A stretch of 64,000 nucleotides of DNA from Octopus vulgaris (Eukaryota). The position numbers and the translations under genes were made by a program. Below the pieces are notes generated by a model, which was not told where the DNA came from, made no database searches, and was given only the letters and a program-made list of their open reading frames with translations. The stretch's first letter is position 1. Each line of letters begins with the position of its first letter. Of the stretch, positions 6,067 through 48,896 are shown in pieces. The stretch is taken from positions 6,758,001 to 6,822,000 of the forward strand of contig OX597818.1 in NCBI GenBank assembly GCA_951406725.2, written 5' to 3'.

Positions 6067-6121
<55 letters not shown>

Positions 6122-6207
6122 ATTAGAGACAAAACCACTATTTTGCAAAACAAACAAGGAAAGACTTAATCAATACATAAAATTTTAATAAAAAGTCAAA
6201 AAAACCG

Positions 6208-6250
6208 CCACTACAATTGTTTCTTGTCTTGATCGACAATCTTCAGGTGG
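6208..6250 (-). ncRNA. Minimal type I hammerhead ribozyme
   Basis: Minus: CCAC-CUGAAGA-UUGUC-gaucaa-GACAA-GAAAC-AAUU-GUA-GUGG. Intact core, stem III palindrome ACAAUUGU, GUA triplet. Confidence 0.85.
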
Positions 6251-6285
6251 ACTTCCAATAAGTCAGTTTCAAATAATGAAACTGA

Positions 6286-6315
6286 CTAACCTAAACCCTA
6301 ACCCTAAACCTAACC

Positions 6316-6356
<41 letters not shown>

Positions 6357-6405
6357 CCCTAACCCTAACCCTAACCCTAACCCTAACCCTAACCCTAACC
6401 CTAAC
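6286..6405 (+). repeat. Interstitial telomeric repeat (CCCTAA)n, about 20 units
   Basis: Read directly; a few variant units (CCTAAA, CCCTAAA). Confidence 0.95.
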
Positions 6406-6621
6406 TCAAGACAAGAAACAATTGTAGTGGCGGTTTTTTTTACTTTTTTATTAAAATTTTATGTATTGATTAAGTCTTTCCTTGTTTGTTTTGCAAAATA
6501 GTGGTTTTGTCTCTAATAATATTATATAATATTTTACTATAAAATTGGATTTAATCCTAAATCTGATTTTTTCCCTGTAAATTTGGATTTATTCCCTAAT
6601 ATTTATTATATATTTATATAC

Positions 6622-7415
6622 AGAATTTACAAAAATTAAAAAACAAAAGACGAAGACAGGTGGTGTAGACAACAATCGGCTGCATTAGTTTAACGCTCGG
6701 GGAGTGAAAAAGTCTTTAACATTTCGAACCTACGCTCTTCCACAGAAAGGAACACTGAAAGAAACGGAGAGAAAATAAAGAATGTGTAGTGGCTAGCGAA
6801 GTATCATGGCGAATGCCGGACAGAGGGGTCACACGGGAGAGCTAGGAAGAAGAGATAATAAAGTAGTGGTGATCCAAAAACGAAGGTGCGCGTGCATGGG
6901 TATATGAGAGCTGGTGACATTCACTTGTGCGTGTGTGCATGTGCAGGTGTGTGGTGATGGTGTGAGGCTGCAAAGTGGACAACGCTAGTGTTGGCGTGGT
7001 GGTGTGATGTGATGTGGTGTTGCGTGGTATGGTGGTGTTTGGTGTGGGGGTGTGTGATGTGGTGTTGGGATGTGGGGCAGATGAGAGTGGAGAAACAAGG
7101 TTGCGGTGTGGGTTAGGCTGAGGGTGAGGGTAGAGGTGGGGTATGTAGGATTAGTTGTAAGGGATGGGGTAGGGTGGGATGGAATCGATAGGGAAGGTGG
7201 CGTTGGCTTGTGTAGAGGTGGGGTTACTATGGAGGGGTGACGATGAAGGGAGGGGGGAAATGAGAAAGTGGGTAGGAGTGAAGAGAAGTAGGAGTCGGAC
7301 CAAGAGAGGAGAGGTGGGTGGGAGGAATAAGGTGTGAGAGGAAGAGAGGAGAGGGGAGGAGAGTTGAGCCCATATGGCACAAAGGATCGAAGAGAGAAGA
7401 CTAATCCCTACCAAG
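6622..7415 (-). mobile_element. Penelope-like element 3' end (endonuclease C-terminus, pyrimidine-rich UTR, pLTR)
   Basis: Minus strand near 7410-7360 reads LVFSLRSFVPYGLN, resembling the C-terminus of PLE GIY-YIG domains. A hammerhead-like motif lies downstream. Confidence 0.65.
6714..6749 (-). ncRNA. Variant minimal hammerhead motif (CUGUGGA core)
   Basis: Minus: CUUU-CUGUGGA-A-GAGC-guag-GUUC-GAAAUGUU-AAAG. Related to the motif at 8778-8812. Confidence 0.55.
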
Positions 7416-7503
7416 ATTGGAAGGATATAGAGAAGATTAGCAGATTAACATCACCCCTGTGCAAAAATGACACGCAAGTTCGTAAAGCGTTCTATATTTT
7501 TTA

Positions 7504-22419: not shown

Positions 22420-25400
22420 TAGTACAAAACTTCAATAATTTTTAGTCTCTCATCCAAAGTGTTCATAAAAGATTGCAACTCTGTAGCGCTTACATATTTT
22501 CCAATGTAAATATTGTCCTAAGGCGGTTTTTATATTCACTTCGCGTTAGCACAGGACTGCCCGAAAATTTGTTTCATCAAATGTGTTGCAGTCTCTGCAT
22601 TTTGGGTGAAGACCTTTTTACTGAGCATTAGCCGGTAATTTCTGGTAAACAAGATTGGATCAGTATGAAGCCTTCAATCTCTGCCTTTAATACGGAACTT
22701 TTCAGCCACTAGTAGGATGTTGTTTGGTCTAATTTGCATTTTGAATTCGAAGAATACATTTTCCACGCAGGGATTTCTGGCTCCACCGTTCCTCAATTTG
22801 TATTTACTCGTTCTTTTTAGCAATATTTTTAATTCGCTTTTCTGCTTTCAAGACATTTTGCTGCTTTCAAGTTCACACGCAAGCCCCAGCATCCAGCCTT
22901 CTATACTAGGTAAGTGCCTGTTTATTCTTATAGTGGATGTTTTATAGCAGACTTCTCATTATATCATTTCTCTTCCCCCACTGCTTCTATGTATTTACTG
23001 CCAGTAAGGATCTGCCTTAGGGTGGTGCTACTTATTAGATTTCAATGATATTCTTGCCTTCCCGCCCATTCGTTGAAGTTCCATCGTATTCCAGTTAATG
23101 GCATTAAAATTGCACTGAACTATTGAAAGTGTTATGGTTTTGATAGATTCAAGTTCAATCTTCAGTACAAGTGTTTTCCTTCATAGTATTTTCCTTCATA
23201 GTAACATGACTTACGCCATCTCATTCTTTTATTACTAGGTATTTATAAGATTCTTGTTGGCCAAGTTCCTTGGTGATAGAGGTGATATCTAATGGATGCT
23301 GTTGTTCTGAGACAGTTTTCAAAGATTTACCAAGAACTAGACGGTCTGCTCACAACTGTTAAAGAGTTTAGCAATGATTTCAGTATTGATTCTGGCCTCG
23401 ATAAGTATGCTGAAGCAACTCTTATAAGATGCTATCTCAGACCAACAGCGTCCATTAAATTAGATATCACTTCTACCACCAAGGAACTTGGCCAACAAAA
23501 ATCTTATAAATACCTGGTAATAAAAGGAGATGGCGTAAGCCATGTCACTATGAAGGAAAATATAAGAGCACTATAGGAGAATAAGACTTATACTGAAGAT
23601 TAAACTTAACTATAAAAATGGAATCTATGAAAACCATAACACTTTCAATAGTTCAGTGCAATTTTAATGTCATTAACTGGAATACGATGGAACTTTAATG
23701 AATGGGCGGGAAGGCAAGAATATCATTGAAATCTAATAAGTAGCACCACCCTAAGGCAGATCCTTACTGGTAGTAAATACATAAAAGCAGTGGGGGAAGG
23801 GAAATGATATAATGAGAAGTCTGCTATAAAACATCCACTATAAGAATGAGCAGGCACTTATCTAGTATAGAAGGCTGGATGCTGAGGCTTGCGTGTGAAC
23901 TTGAAAGCAGCAAAATGTCGTATTCTATAATCATGGAAAATTGTAAGTTCGCAAGGTAACCGAATTAGGTGAAAAACTGTTTCAGATCGTTCACGTAAGG
24001 CAGAAAGTTTTTTCTGTTGTTAAAAATTTTATACTCATATCTGGTGTTATTCCAGTCATTAGTCATTGGGATCAGTGCCATATAAAAAAGTTATGGAGAA
24101 ACGTAGTTATATTGAAATGTGCCTCGTTTGTTGTTGATGCTGTTGGATTGGCTCATCCCTTTACAATAGTTTAGAAAGAGATGTGTTCCATTTGGCCATG
24201 CTAATTTGTAAGAATTTGGAGGTGACTGTAGAGGCCTTGCATATCTCAAGGACTTTGAATACCCATTTATGTGGGACACTATCAATCACTTTCCTGTATT
24301 CTACCCATGCCACACTCAGGTTCTTGTCTTTGCTCCGACAATTCTCTAAAATCATTCCATTTGTGAGCAATTTGTCTTTGCTCCCATTGGAGTATTTTTC
24401 TCATAGAATATATTTCTTTTGAAAGAGAGCACATGTTCCTTCAGCTATTATAGATCTTTTACGAGAAAACATTGGTCGGTAATTATTCACGTTCATTGTA
24501 TCATCAGTTTTTTGTTAGTAAGTAGGTAACTCCTTCAATCAGCCAACTAGATATTTTCTCTGGGTTCTGAATGATATCAGTGAAGAGATACAGTTAAATT
24601 TTCGTATACTTCTGTCAAACAATTCAGCCAGATATTAGGGATCCAGTCTACTTCTTGGGTTCTTTCATTTATCCGACTTTTTAGTCCCTATTGCTTCTCA
24701 CAACGGTTCTTCAATTTCATTCAGTCTCTCTTATACGTTCCAAGTTGCTGAGTTTTTAACTCCATACGCTGTTTCAAAGAGTTCCTCAGTCGCAAGGAAG
24801 TTTATAAGATCGTTGATTTTATAGGTTTCTTTCATTTTTCTAGCTTTTTCTGTTTTGATATTTGCTCCACTAGCAAGTTCATCAAGAATTGATACGTCTA
24901 CACTCAGAATTTCAATGTCTTTTCGTACTTTTACTTTTCACTTAGGAAGCTTATTGGCATGATAAGATTACTTAATGTTGTTAGATGATTACCTTTATAT
25001 CTTAAGATCTGTCTTAGAACAACGTTAAAGGTCCTGATTTTGTTGTTAATTATTTGGGCAGTTTGTATACTTTGGTAGTGCTTCACTACTAACCATGTCA
25101 GTAAACTTAATCTTGCTAAATTCTCTCATAAGGCTTTCTTTTGCTTCTGAAATCTTTTCTCTATTATTTACTTCAAATTCTGTGTCGTATCTATTTTGAT
25201 GTTGTGCAGGGAGATCTACTTTATTCTCTTTTACCAATTCTTTGTTCACCTTCGTCGTGGTTCAGTGTTACTTCACTTACAATAGGTTCTGTGTTTCTGC
25301 TACCTATTTCATCTATAAGGTTGTTGCTTTCATTCCCTCGACTATGAGATATTTGTGTCTTAGTTTCGTTAATTTCAGCGTCAGTTAGTCTTTTGTTCTT

Positions 25401-35568: not shown

Positions 35569-35639
<71 letters not shown>

Positions 35640-35734
35640 GGGCTCCTAAATAAAGATGCCGAGTGCTGGGAACACAAAAAGGGGATGAATTTATCGAGAG
35701 TGAAAATCAAAAACGTTTACCGATAACTTTAACA

Positions 35735-35808
35735 ACTCGTACCGCGGTTTCTGCTTCTTTCTAGCAAAACACAGAATATGTTTGCTAAGGCCAGCTTCAT
35801 CAGCGAGT
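35735..35808 (-). ncRNA. Type I hammerhead ribozyme, unit 1
   Basis: Minus: ACUCG-CUGAUGA-AGCU...UAGCAAA/UUUGCUA hairpin...AGCA-GAAAC-CGCG-GUA-CGAGU. Palindromic ACCGCGGU stem III. Confidence 0.85.
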
Positions 35809-36179
35809 CGCCTAAATTTAATCGAGGTCTGAAGCGATGTGGGACTATGTGTTGAACCCGACTACTAGCAGATCTTAACTTTTCAAATCTCTGCGCAGAC
35901 GCAAAATTTACACGGGCATGCCGGGAAGAATTTTACGAATAAATCCATCATGTAGTATGCGAATATAAACAAGAAGGGTAGTAATATTATTTACTACCAG
36001 GTGCCCAGCACAAAAGACGAATTAGTCATAAGACAAAAATATTATTCATATAGAAAAATATTATTCATGTAGTTATACAATTAAGGGCTCCTAAATAAAG
36101 ATGCCGAGTGCTGGGAACACAAAAAGGGGATGAATTTATCGAGAGTGAAAATCAAAAACGTTTACCGATAACTTTAACA

Positions 36180-36253
36180 ACTCGTACCGCGGTTTCTGCT
36201 TCTTTCTAGCAAAACACAGAATATGTTTGCTAAGGCCAGCTTCATCAGCGAGT
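36180..36253 (-). ncRNA. Type I hammerhead ribozyme, unit 2
   Basis: Same sequence as 35735-35808, offset by 445. Confidence 0.85.
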
Positions 36254-36624
36254 CGCCTAAATTTAATCGAGGTCTGCAGCGATGTGGGACTATGTGTTGA
36301 ACCCGACTACTAGCAGATCTTAACTTTTCAAATCTCTGCGCAGACGCAAAATTTACACGGGCATGCCGGGAAGAATTTTACGAATAAATCCATCATGTAG
36401 TATGCGAATATAAACAAGAAGGGTAGTAATATTATTTACTACCAGGTGCCCAGCACAAAAGACGAATTAGTCATAAGACAAAAATATTATTCATATAGAA
36501 AAATATTATTCATGTAGTTATACAATTAAGGGCTCCTAAATAAAGATGCCGAGTGCTGGGAACACAAAAAGGGGATGAATTTATCGAGAGTGAAAATCAA
36601 AAACGTTTACCGATAACTTTAACA

Positions 36625-36698
36625 ACTCGTACCGCGGTTTCTGCTTCTTTCTAGCAAAACACAGAATATGTTTGCTAAGGCCAGCTTCATCAGCGAGT
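36625..36698 (-). ncRNA. Type I hammerhead ribozyme, unit 3
   Basis: Same sequence as 35735-35808, offset by 890. Confidence 0.85.
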
Positions 36699-37482
36699 CG
36701 CCTAAATTTAATCGAGGTCTGCAGCGATGTGGGACTATGTGTTGAACCCGACTACTAGCAGATCTTAACTTTTCAAATCTCTGCGCAGACGCAAAATTTA
36801 CACGGGCATGCCGGGAAGAATTTTACGAATAAATCCATCATGTAGTATGCGAATATAAACAAGAAGGGTAGTAATATTATTTATCTTTATTTAGGAGCCC
36901 TTAATTGTATAACTACATGAATAATATTTTTCTATATGAATAATATTTTTGTCTTATGACTAATTCGTCTTTTGTGCTGGGCACCTGGTAGTAAATAATA
37001 TTACTACCCTTCTTGTTTATATTCGCATACTACATGATGGATTTATTCGTAAAATTCTTCCCGGCATGCCCGTGTAAATTTTGCGTTTGCGCAGAGATTT
37101 GAAAAGTTAAGATCTGCTAGTAGTCGGGTTCAACACATAGTCCCACATCGCTGCAGACCTCGATTAAAGTTATTGGTAAACGTTTTTGATTTTCACTCTC
37201 GATAAATTCATCCCCTTTTTGTGTTCCCAGCACTCGGCATCTTTATTTAGGAGCCCTTAATTGTATAACTACATGAATAATATTTTTCTATATGAATAAT
37301 ATTTTTGTCTTATGACTAATTCGTCTTTTGTGCTGGGCACCTGGTAGTAAATAATATTACTACCCTTCTTGTTTATATATATATATATATATATAATTTA
37401 TTTACCATTGCTTCTAGTATTGCGAAAGGACATTTGGAGAATTCTTTAGTGTAAATTCATTCACGAAAGCTATTTTCTGTTC

Positions 37483-40706: not shown

Positions 40707-41256
<550 letters not shown>

Positions 41257-41302: not shown

Positions 41303-41776
41303 TTGAAAAGGATTTTAACCCAAGCTACACTGCACTCAACATCAACCACAAAACCAGCAGTTAGAAAATGTGGAAGGCCCAACTGCGGAATCTGTGTCAT
41401 CTTGAAAGAAGGATCAGAATTTATACTGGAACAAGGCCACCAGTTTACCATTAGAACAAACTTCACCTGCGCATCAGAAAACTTAATTTACGTCATAACA
41501 TGCGCAGGCTGCAATAGGCAGTATATAGGCCATACAAAAAATAGCTTACGTAACAGGATGGCGGTGCATAAATCACAAATTAGAAACCCTGAGTACCGCA
41601 AAATACCAGTCAGCGGACACATAGATAGATGTACTGGAAATGTAAATCCGAAATTTACAACTAACCCGCTCTATAAATTCAGTGACAACGCAACCTTCAC
41701 ACAACGCCAAAATAAAGAACTATATTTCATAAAAAAATTTAGACCAAGTTTAAACACCCTGGGCCAGGAATACTAA
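41303..41776 (+). CDS. Penelope-like (Neptune-type) GIY-YIG endonuclease domain, 5'-truncated element
   Basis: CGRPNCGIC...FTCASENLIYVITCAGCNRQYIGHT...LRNRMAVHK...VSGH...KELYFI...LN: Cys-rich linker plus LIY/YIG motifs and conserved R, H, E, N. The frame is open but the element is truncated at (TA)n. Confidence 0.9.
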   Translation: MKRILTQATLHSTSTTKPAVRKCGRPNCGICVILKEGSEFILEQGHQFTIRTNFTCASENLIYVITCAGCNRQYIGHTKNSLRNRMAVHKSQIRNPEYRKIPVSGHIDRCTGNVNPKFTTNPLYKFSDNATFTQRQNKELYFIKKFRPSLNTLGQEY

Positions 41777-47907: not shown

Positions 47908-48204
47908 ATAGATATATATATATACATATACGTATATATATATAAGTTTAACAATTAAGGATAACCTCTTAATAAGGGATCTTAACAAGAAATTATCGGG
48001 TAGTTAGCGTGAAAACCTCATAAAAGAAAAGAATTCGAAAATAATTTTTTTTCTCTTGAACAAATTAATTATATCTATATTGTATAGAGGGCATTATTAC
48101 ACATAAATGCCTCACACTAAGAGGGACAAAGTCATTACTACCAAAATTATACTAATCATACCCAAATGCAGTTTTTCAAAGCAAGACATTTAAAAAATGA
48201 ATTT

Positions 48205-48262
48205 AGTTCTGTATCACCGTGATTTCACATTCAACTTACGTCTTATGATCATCAGCAGAACT
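48205..48262 (-). ncRNA. Type I hammerhead ribozyme, copy 1
   Basis: Minus: AGUUCUG-CUGAUGA-UCAU...AUGU-GAAA-UCACGGUGA-UA-CAGAACU. 7-bp stem I, U-U mismatch at the base of stem II. Confidence 0.8.
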
Positions 48263-48683
48263 GATTCTGAACACATCATAAATAAACTACCAACCTTACG
48301 TAGCGAAGACGAACAGACAACTGCTCACTCCGGCCAAGCACATGGAATGTTTATAAATCATATATCCGGTAAATGGCGGGCTTTTTACGAACTGCATGTC
48401 GGGTAATAAAAAGTATTTCGGAATAAGTTTAACAATTAAGGATAACCTCTTAATAAGGGATCTTAACAAGAAATTATCGGGTAGTTAGCGTGAAAACCTC
48501 ATAAAAGAAAAGAATTCGAAAATAATTTTTTTCTCTTGAACAAATTAATTATATCTATATTGTATAGAGGGCATTATTACACATAAATGCCTCACACTAA
48601 GAGGGACAAAGTCATTACTACCAAAATTATACTAATCATACCCAAATGCAGTTTTTCAAAGCAAGACATTTAAAAATGAATTT

Positions 48684-48741
48684 AGTTCTGTATCACCGTG
48701 ATTTCTCATTCAACTTACGTCTTATGATCATCAGCAGAACT
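48684..48741 (-). ncRNA. Type I hammerhead ribozyme, copy 2
   Basis: As copy 1 but with UCAU/AUGA fully paired; AUA triplet. Confidence 0.88.
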
Positions 48742-48845
48742 GATTCTGAACACATCATAAATAAACTACCAACCTTACGTAGCGAAGACGAACAGACAAC
48801 TGCTCACTCCGGCCAAGCACATGGAATGTTTATAAATCATATATC

Positions 48846-48896
<51 letters not shown>

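What the first reader, a model, noticed from the sequence alone, without database searches (positions are those of the whole stretch)
6117..6612. Telomeric (CCCTAA)n tract at the inversion point of a hammerhead element
Seen: left arm with a full hammerhead (6208-6250), a perfect 11-bp hairpin (AGTCAGTTTCA/TGAAACTGACT, 6261-6287), about 20 CCCTAA units, then the right arm restarting inside the ribozyme stem II loop (6406). The relative at 40752-41023 has no such tract. Known: PLE RTs are the sister group of telomerase RT, and endonuclease-less PLEs associate with telomeric repeats. Inference: telomeric repeats were captured by template switching or added during integration, or they are an internal part of this subfamily.
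Basis: partly seen in the sequence, partly recalled or inferred. Interest (0 to 1): 0.72.

Follow-up and report, generated by a model that had tools for sequence, protein, structure and literature searches.

The report
Telomeric patch in a Penelope palindrome
A 118-base run of telomere repeats replaces 28 bases near the centre of one mirror-image stub of a Penelope-type jumping gene, and none of the sister copies checked has it, so it is likely a one-off repair patch, probably added by telomerase as the element inserted, and not a feature of the family.

Summary
The sequence is as described, but two labels are wrong. The element is a head-to-head pair of short, intron-less front ends of an endonuclease-bearing (Hydra-type) Penelope-like element (PLE). 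The family has at least 978 exact hammerhead cores. The 11-bp hairpin is the ordinary palindrome centre, intact in 73 copies. The tract (6288-6405) starts 11 bp beyond the loop and replaces 28 nt of the right arm, destroying that arm's hammerhead. It is unique: 1 of 131 insertions examined, and genome-wide patterns find no second case. It is therefore not an inherited microsatellite, and it lies 6.76 Mb inside a 147.5-Mb scaffold. Two sister copies carry non-telomeric fillers at the same joint; one is a 147-nt copy of the local flank that breaks at the same base. Seven other isolated telomeric tracts occur, none in an inverted repeat. Best reading: a telomerase-type filler added to a truncated cDNA end while the two arms were joined (0.5); a later break in the palindrome is the main rival (0.28). 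Reads did not settle whether the junction is real. One event of a known kind.

The parts
6068..6117 (.). (TA)25 target microsatellite left of the insertion
   Evidence: sister copies also lie in (TA)n
6117..6280 (-). Left arm: tail-less, spliced front end of the PLE transcript, inverted; 157 of 157 aligned bases identical to family copy L087
6208..6250 (-). Complete minimal type I hammerhead motif; cleavage predicted between 6212 and 6211; activity untested
   Evidence: sequence; 978 exact cores genome-wide; not detected by Rfam
6259..6260 (-). Exon 1/exon 2 junction: long copies carry a GT..AG intron of about 1.2-2.4 kb here
6261..6287 (.). Palindrome centre: 11-bp stem with 5-nt loop (6272-6276, the true inversion point); 6277-6287 is the surviving stub of the right arm
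6288..6405 (-). Telomeric tract, 118 nt, G-rich on the minus strand, replacing 28 nt (positions 23-50 of the short copy); no base in register at the 6405/6406 junction, 2-nt match at 6286-6287
6406..6521 (+). Right arm, 5'-truncated in the stem II loop; its hammerhead lacks stem I 5' strand, CUGAAGA and stem II 5' strand
6522..6609 (+). About 88-nt tail present on this arm only, as in sister copies

Best explanation
The tract is a one-off telomeric filler that host repair, likely telomerase, probably added to the 3' end of a truncated cDNA while two cDNA copies of one spliced Penelope-like RNA were being joined head to head in a (TA)n site. Shown: the insertion is two intron-less front ends of an endonuclease-bearing PLE, one with and one without the tail; the tract replaces 28 nt of the tailed arm; its G-rich strand continues that arm's cDNA strand; no other copy examined has it. 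Inferred steps: (1) both arms were reverse-transcribed from two internal start sites towards the RNA 5' end; (2) the left cDNA gained the 11-bp stub by fold-back at the short TTCA/TGAA repeat or by an aborted fill-in on the partner cDNA; (3) the right cDNA ended, or was trimmed, in the stem II loop; (4) about 20 TTAGGG units were added to that free 3' end; (5) the ends were joined through a 2-nt match. The tract has no evident function; it breaks the palindrome and removes one ribozyme core.
For: Unique: 1 of 131 distinct insertions examined within 400 nt of the hammerhead; one place genome-wide for C-rich repeats before the hammerhead 3' half; none for the other orientation or before the core. 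Joints of this family are end-joining products: many pairs have unequal 5' truncations with overlaps of a few bases (L090, L100, L121, L123, L126, L136). Other fillers occur at the same joint: L147 has the same 11-bp stub plus 147 nt copied 100%, inverted, from about 400 nt away; L196 has 237 nt and restarts one base from the window's restart. The arms are very young (157/157 and two differences in about 200 nt, both in T runs), while 73 exact centres survive intact. The deletion spares the hairpin tip. The polarity is that of healing a 5'-truncated element, as stated for endonuclease-less PLEs at chromosome ends (PMC3846280, passage). Two internal RT start sites that explain the tail: PMC11167929. 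Telomeric insertions at breaks needed telomerase in human cells (PMC5388398, abstract).
Against: n = 1, and timing cannot be read from one haplotype. A break after insertion gives the same sequence, and the polarity fits it half of the time. No base is in register at the G-strand start, whereas 31 of 40 informative horse tracts had one or more (PMC7215372). No telomerase-RNA fragment flanks the tract. Four of about 20 units are variants, more than the young arms predict. Multi-copy contigs resembling 6285-6312 exist in public runs (depth 1211 in X1), so copying from degenerate telomeric DNA is open, although the assembly holds no donor within one mismatch. The genome also makes such tracts away from any joint (L152). 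No listed record bridges a junction.
Confidence: 0.5

Rival explanations
1. Break after insertion: the finished AT-rich palindrome (arms about 165 bp) formed a hairpin or cruciform and broke near its centre; 28 nt were lost and a telomeric filler was inserted, as for ordinary short interstitial telomeric sequences.
For: Deletion plus tract is the commonest class of modified site in horse (30%; PMC7215372). Long AT-rich palindromes are break-prone (PMC7999016, passages). The window's centre equals the intact centre of L002. In L147 the 4-nt self-complementary centre is most simply made by two already joined cDNAs (inference). L152 shows a 36-nt tract replacing about 11 nt in the middle of another PLE-like ORF.
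Against: The hairpin tip is spared. The copy has had little time to break. 73 exact centres are intact. None of 7 other isolated tracts lies in an inverted repeat.
Confidence: 0.28
2. The PLE reverse transcriptase itself switched onto telomerase RNA or C-rich telomeric RNA, or repair synthesis copied a telomeric DNA donor, and then returned to the element.
For: PLE RTs are related to TERT (PMC8557442, abstract passage). L147 shows that templated fillers occur at this joint. Large interstitial arrays exist on the same scaffold. Variant units and multi-copy look-alike contigs would fit a degenerate donor.
Against: No donor with the tract's variant pattern in the assembly (only the window's own place). 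No non-repeat sequence came along with the tract. A property of the enzyme should recur, yet 0 of 130 other insertions show it.
Confidence: 0.13
3. Assembly artefact: a chimeric join, or a consensus error at a hairpin.
For: No listed record bridges either junction. Some arrays in the assembly abut gaps or degenerate into TTTTAA runs, which I recall as a nanopore miscall pattern.
Against: Both sides are collinear parts of one correctly built insertion (tail-less arm, tailed arm, TA-rich ends). The family sequence resumes after a clean 28-nt gap. Analogous fillers exist at other copies.
Confidence: 0.07
4. The tract is an inherited internal microsatellite of a subfamily, or a piece of another repeat family that carries CCCTAA units.
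For: Two related repeat families in this genome carry a fixed internal tract of about 5 units.
Against: 0 of 130 other insertions and no second genome-wide hit. None of those families' flanking sequence is present, and their tracts are much shorter.
Confidence: 0.02

Closest known systems
Short interstitial telomeric sequences inserted at repaired breaks (PMC7215372, passages; PMC2246262 and PMC8537989, search listing only)
   Same: Short TTAGGG tract at an internal site with a small deletion of the target; the empty state can be read from paralogues.
   Different: It lies at the joint of a retroelement palindrome; no base is in register at the G-strand start; no telomerase-RNA fragment was seen; the comparison is with paralogues, not with an empty allele.
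Hydra-clade EN+ Penelope-like elements (PMC8557442, section 11 and passages)
   Same: C-terminal GIY-YIG-type domain, DKT, CxCX5C linker, CxxC and CxH, hammerhead, (TA)n target, inverted 5'-truncated copy, tail on one end.
   Different: RWK reads KWK; units are longer than 3 kb because of a large 5' intron; the tail is about 88 nt against 30-40 nt; about half of the sampled cores are intron-less; no tree was built.
Endonuclease-less PLEs Athena and Coprina (PMC8557442 and PMC3846280, passages)
   Same: C-rich telomeric repeats on the sense strand beside a hammerhead; telomeric repeats on a truncated 5' end have the same polarity as here.
   Different: Those elements lack an endonuclease, carry the repeats as a family feature and sit at chromosome ends. 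Here the family has an endonuclease domain, the tract is in one copy only, destroys the ribozyme and lies 6.76 Mb inside the scaffold.
Minimal hammerheads of metazoan PLE pLTRs (PMC4209133, part 1 of 4 and passages)
   Same: Minimal type I motif with short palindromic helix III; pairs on opposite strands 100-700 bp apart; an intron ending just 5' of helix I.
   Different: No telomeric tract between such pairs appears in the parts read.

Membership tests
Hydra-clade EN+ PLE | Single ORF with RT and C-terminal GIY-YIG domain | tested here: inconclusive
   Long copies show RT-like motifs (GAP, YRDD) and a C-terminal VVY..YIG segment by eye (frameshifted in the copies read). Pfam gave no RT or GIY-YIG hit for L045.
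Hydra-clade EN+ PLE | DKT in place of DKG; CxCX5C linker; CxxC and CxH motifs; no CCHH | tested here: met
   SDKT, CTCRDKSNC, CYLC and CRH in the translations of L040, L045 and L052, compared with section 11 of PMC8557442; the absence of CCHH was judged by eye.
Hydra-clade EN+ PLE | N-terminal RWK motif | tested here: inconclusive
   L045 reads RIKWK.
Hydra-clade EN+ PLE | Hammerhead in the terminal repeat; (TA)n target; inverted truncated copy with one tail | tested here: met
Hydra-clade EN+ PLE | Phylogenetic placement in the clade | not tested
   No reference proteins were fetched; the paper's supplements were not opened.
EN-deficient telomeric PLE (Athena/Coprina) | No endonuclease domain | tested here: not met
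   C-terminal GIY-YIG-type segment in long copies, by eye
EN-deficient telomeric PLE (Athena/Coprina) | Reverse-complement telomeric repeats as a family feature; terminal location | tested here: not met
   1 of 131 insertions; copies dispersed over many scaffolds; this one 6.76 Mb into a 147.5-Mb scaffold
Short interstitial telomeric sequence from break repair | Short tract at an internal site, absent from the ancestral state, often with a deletion | tested here: met
   118 nt replacing 28 nt against 98-99% identical paralogues
Short interstitial telomeric sequence from break repair | [quoted passage not shown] | tested here: not met
   None at 6405/6406; only a 2-nt match at the far junction. 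9 of 40 horse loci also had none, so this is typical rather than obligatory.
Short interstitial telomeric sequence from break repair | Empty allele or orthologue; dependence on telomerase | not testable with these tools
   No relatives are held for this genome; the read tools could not resolve the locus.
Minimal PLE hammerhead | Self-cleavage | not testable with these tools
   Motif only; the monomer fold is not the lowest-energy structure.

The most novel reading that the evidence does not exclude
Telomerase can heal the free cDNA end of an endonuclease-bearing Penelope element during integration deep inside a chromosome, after which the healed end is rejoined. PLE insertion would then be a source of interstitial telomeric repeats, and this locus a trapped two-cDNA joining intermediate.
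Probability: 0.35. Interest if true: 0.55.

Novelty: new member of a known kind. Interest (0 to 1): 0.32.

Why it matters
As it stands it is one repair scar. Its value is as a fossil of how head-to-head PLE insertions are finished: free, truncated ends joined by host repair with fillers of different origin (local flank, unknown, telomeric). If timing at integration were shown, it would tie telomerase to the cDNA ends of endonuclease-bearing PLEs and add a route to interstitial telomeric repeats. It gives no evidence that the PLE enzyme acts like telomerase.

Tried and rejected
Rfam scan: no hammerhead hit. Reality of the junction from public runs: one search skipped the repeat; one search listed 24 of 473 pieces, none bridging, and the raw-read run laid 0 reads. 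This is inconclusive, not evidence of absence. A depth-11 contig over 6285-6312 in X24 could not be traced leftwards. Degenerate two-orientation pattern: it missed the window's own tract and returned one AT-rich false hit, so it is not counted. Donor search: only the window's place. The one other match is a variant inside a large array and was treated as chance. Truncation hotspot in the stem II loop: rejected; 2 of 11 hits were true breaks there, against 2 of 3 at one control position and about 5 of 18 at another (read by eye, because the script labelled indels as breaks). Whether breaks after the 11-bp stub are enriched was not tested at neighbouring bases (2 cases). Pfam did not recognise the family's ORF. 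Literature searches showed no report of a telomeric tract inside the inverted joint of an EN+ PLE in their listings; the library lacks most subscription papers, and the 2007 paper on telomere-associated PLEs was not held.

Full report
Observation. It holds a minimal hammerhead motif on the minus strand at 6208-6250, an 11-bp stem with a 5-nt loop at 6261-6287 (z -7.5), a CCCTAA-type tract at 6288-6405 (19.8 units, 93% matches; 118 nt with 15 perfect and 4 variant units) and a right arm that restarts at 6406. Rfam does not see the hammerhead and the monomer does not fold into it by energy, as expected for the minimal PLE motifs of PMC4209133 (part 1 of 4 and passages read). The window is G000:C5:6,758,001-6,822,000 on a 147.5-Mb scaffold, so the tract is interstitial. 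The first 6 kb of that scaffold has no telomeric run; an array lies at about 0.21 Mb.

The family. The left arm finds 1035 candidates, of which 40 were scored, the best at 98-99% identity. The exact 32-nt hammerhead core occurs 978 times. Typical short copies are palindromes: two arms head to head, one with an approximately 88-nt tail, in (TA)n. Against these copies the tract begins 11 bp beyond the loop and replaces 28 nt of the tailed arm, including its CUGAAGA core. The relative at 40752-41023 is a diverged sister (85% over the mirrored arm).

Parent element. Copies of 1.3-15 kb with the same inverted ends were fetched. [quoted passage not shown] This matches the description of the Hydra clade in section 11 of PMC8557442; RWK reads KWK, no tree was built and the supplements were not opened. 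Long copies have a GT..AG intron of about 1.2-2.4 kb just upstream of the hammerhead, and short copies have the exact exon junction. Of 98 cores (the first 100 listed less one pair), 43 were spliced, 4 spliced at a donor 4 nt further on, 41 unspliced and 10 other. The window's left arm is spliced (6259/6260). Short copies are thus front ends of the spliced RNA, and the inversion point lies at or near its 5' end; L194 extends further 5'. Two internal RT start sites that explain the one-sided tail were shown for another PLE (PMC11167929, parts 1-2 of 4). Earlier scan notes reached the same reading; they are not counted as support.

Is the tract a family feature? No. C-rich repeats within 30 nt before the hammerhead 3' half occur at one place, the window's. 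G-rich repeats there, or either orientation before the core, occur nowhere (exact patterns, so diverged copies are missed). Of 131 distinct insertions in hand, only this one has two or more units within 400 nt. One search failed its own positive control and is not counted.

Other fillers at the same joint. Only two places break right after the 11-bp stub: the window and L147. In L147 the filler is 147 nt copied perfectly, inverted, from about 400 nt away. L196 has a 237-nt filler with no source among the loci held and restarts one base from the window's restart. Many pairs have unequal 5' truncations joined through a few overlapping bases. A truncation hotspot in the stem II loop was tested and not found.

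Background of telomeric repeats. Two end-phase patterns gave 46 and 31 hits, of which 76 of 77 were examined. Most lie in large arrays or in two related repeat families with an internal tract of about 5 units. Eight, the window's included, are isolated tracts; the other seven are 31-72 nt and none lies in an inverted repeat. One, L152, replaces about 11 nt in the middle of another PLE-like ORF with 3 bases in register (paralogues only about 82% alike), a textbook repair insertion by the criteria of PMC7215372 (passages). My rough extrapolation is some tens of isolated tracts genome-wide. A chance hit on this family's roughly 0.1 Mb of palindromes would then be well under 1%, but this is after the fact and the genome has other palindromic families.

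Mechanism. The tract is a filler at an end-joining junction; only its timing and enzyme are open. Its G-rich strand continues the cDNA strand of the truncated arm, which is the polarity of telomeric addition to 5'-truncated endonuclease-less PLEs (PMC3846280, passage). The arms are nearly unmutated, the hairpin tip is spared, and every insertion of this type must pass through free single-stranded 3' ends (inference). I therefore favour addition during the joining step (0.5). A later break in the finished palindrome gives the same sequence (0.28; PMC7999016, passages). Telomerase is inferred from precedent (PMC5388398, abstract only). Against it are no base in register and four variant units; contigs resembling 6285-6312 occur at high depth in one run, though no donor is in the assembly. 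Copying from telomeric RNA or DNA keeps 0.13.

Artefact. Public runs did not settle it: no listed record bridges a junction, but the tool skipped the repeat and showed 24 of 473 pieces. The collinear anatomy and the analogous fillers argue against a chimera (0.07).

Verdict. A real-looking, single interstitial telomeric insertion in a Hydra-type PLE stub. It is not a subfamily trait and not evidence of telomerase-like behaviour of the PLE enzyme. The listings of seven literature searches showed no such case, within the limits of that library; the bioRxiv retrozyme paper was seen as abstract only. Interest 0.32.

Noticed in passing
G000 family-wide; L039-L053 against L085-L142: About half of the sampled hammerhead cores (47 of 98) lie in intron-less copies, with two alternative donors 4 nt apart, although PLEs are known for keeping introns; spliced head-to-head pairs argue for a sense template.
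   Followed up: yes
L118 (G000:C1:213,270,873 region): A single-arm copy has one extra G between the (TA)n target and the first base of exon 1, which could be a reverse-transcribed cap.
   Followed up: no
L147 (G000:C12:11,655,337 region): Same 11-bp stub as the window, followed by a 147-nt inverted perfect copy of the nearby flank.
   Followed up: yes
L152 (G000:C5:9,248,871-9,248,907): 36-nt telomeric tract replacing about 11 nt inside the ORF of another GIY-YIG PLE-like family, with 3 bases in register.
   Followed up: yes
L178 (G000:C28:28,510,574 region): A 55-nt telomeric tract lies between a (TA)n run and the truncated end of what looks, by eye, like a LINE restriction-like endonuclease segment; possibly another junction filler.
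   Followed up: partly
L055-L059, L065-L067, L077-L082, L084, L149, L181, L182, L184, L185, L187, L190: Two related dispersed repeat families carry a fixed internal tract of about 5 CCCTAA units; some copies are themselves palindromic with opposed tracts. They are the main source of short telomeric matches in this genome.
   Followed up: partly
G000:C5:28.44-28.47 Mb, C5:55.06 Mb, C7:59.7 Mb, C8:17.86 Mb, C9:100.41 Mb: Kilobase-scale telomeric arrays far from scaffold ends, one beside an N gap and some running into TTTTAA repeats: true interstitial arrays or misjoined chromosome ends.
   Followed up: no
window 41303-41776: GIY-YIG endonuclease fragment (Pfam PF01541, E 2.6e-07) with a cysteine-rich linker, likely from another PLE family.
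   Followed up: partly
window 7390-7501: Diverged U6 snRNA copy (53 bits, above the gathering score), probably a retrocopy.
   Followed up: no
window 35629-37378, 22852-23919, 47942-48847: Other tandem and inverted units (445-bp and 479-bp repeats, 304-bp inverted arms), some starting in (TA)n, that may be PLE ends of other families.
   Followed up: no
L039-L045, L052: The family's ORF has a long asparagine-rich stretch between RT and endonuclease, recalling the N-rich inserts of rotifer Penelope ORFs (PMC3846280, passage).
   Followed up: no
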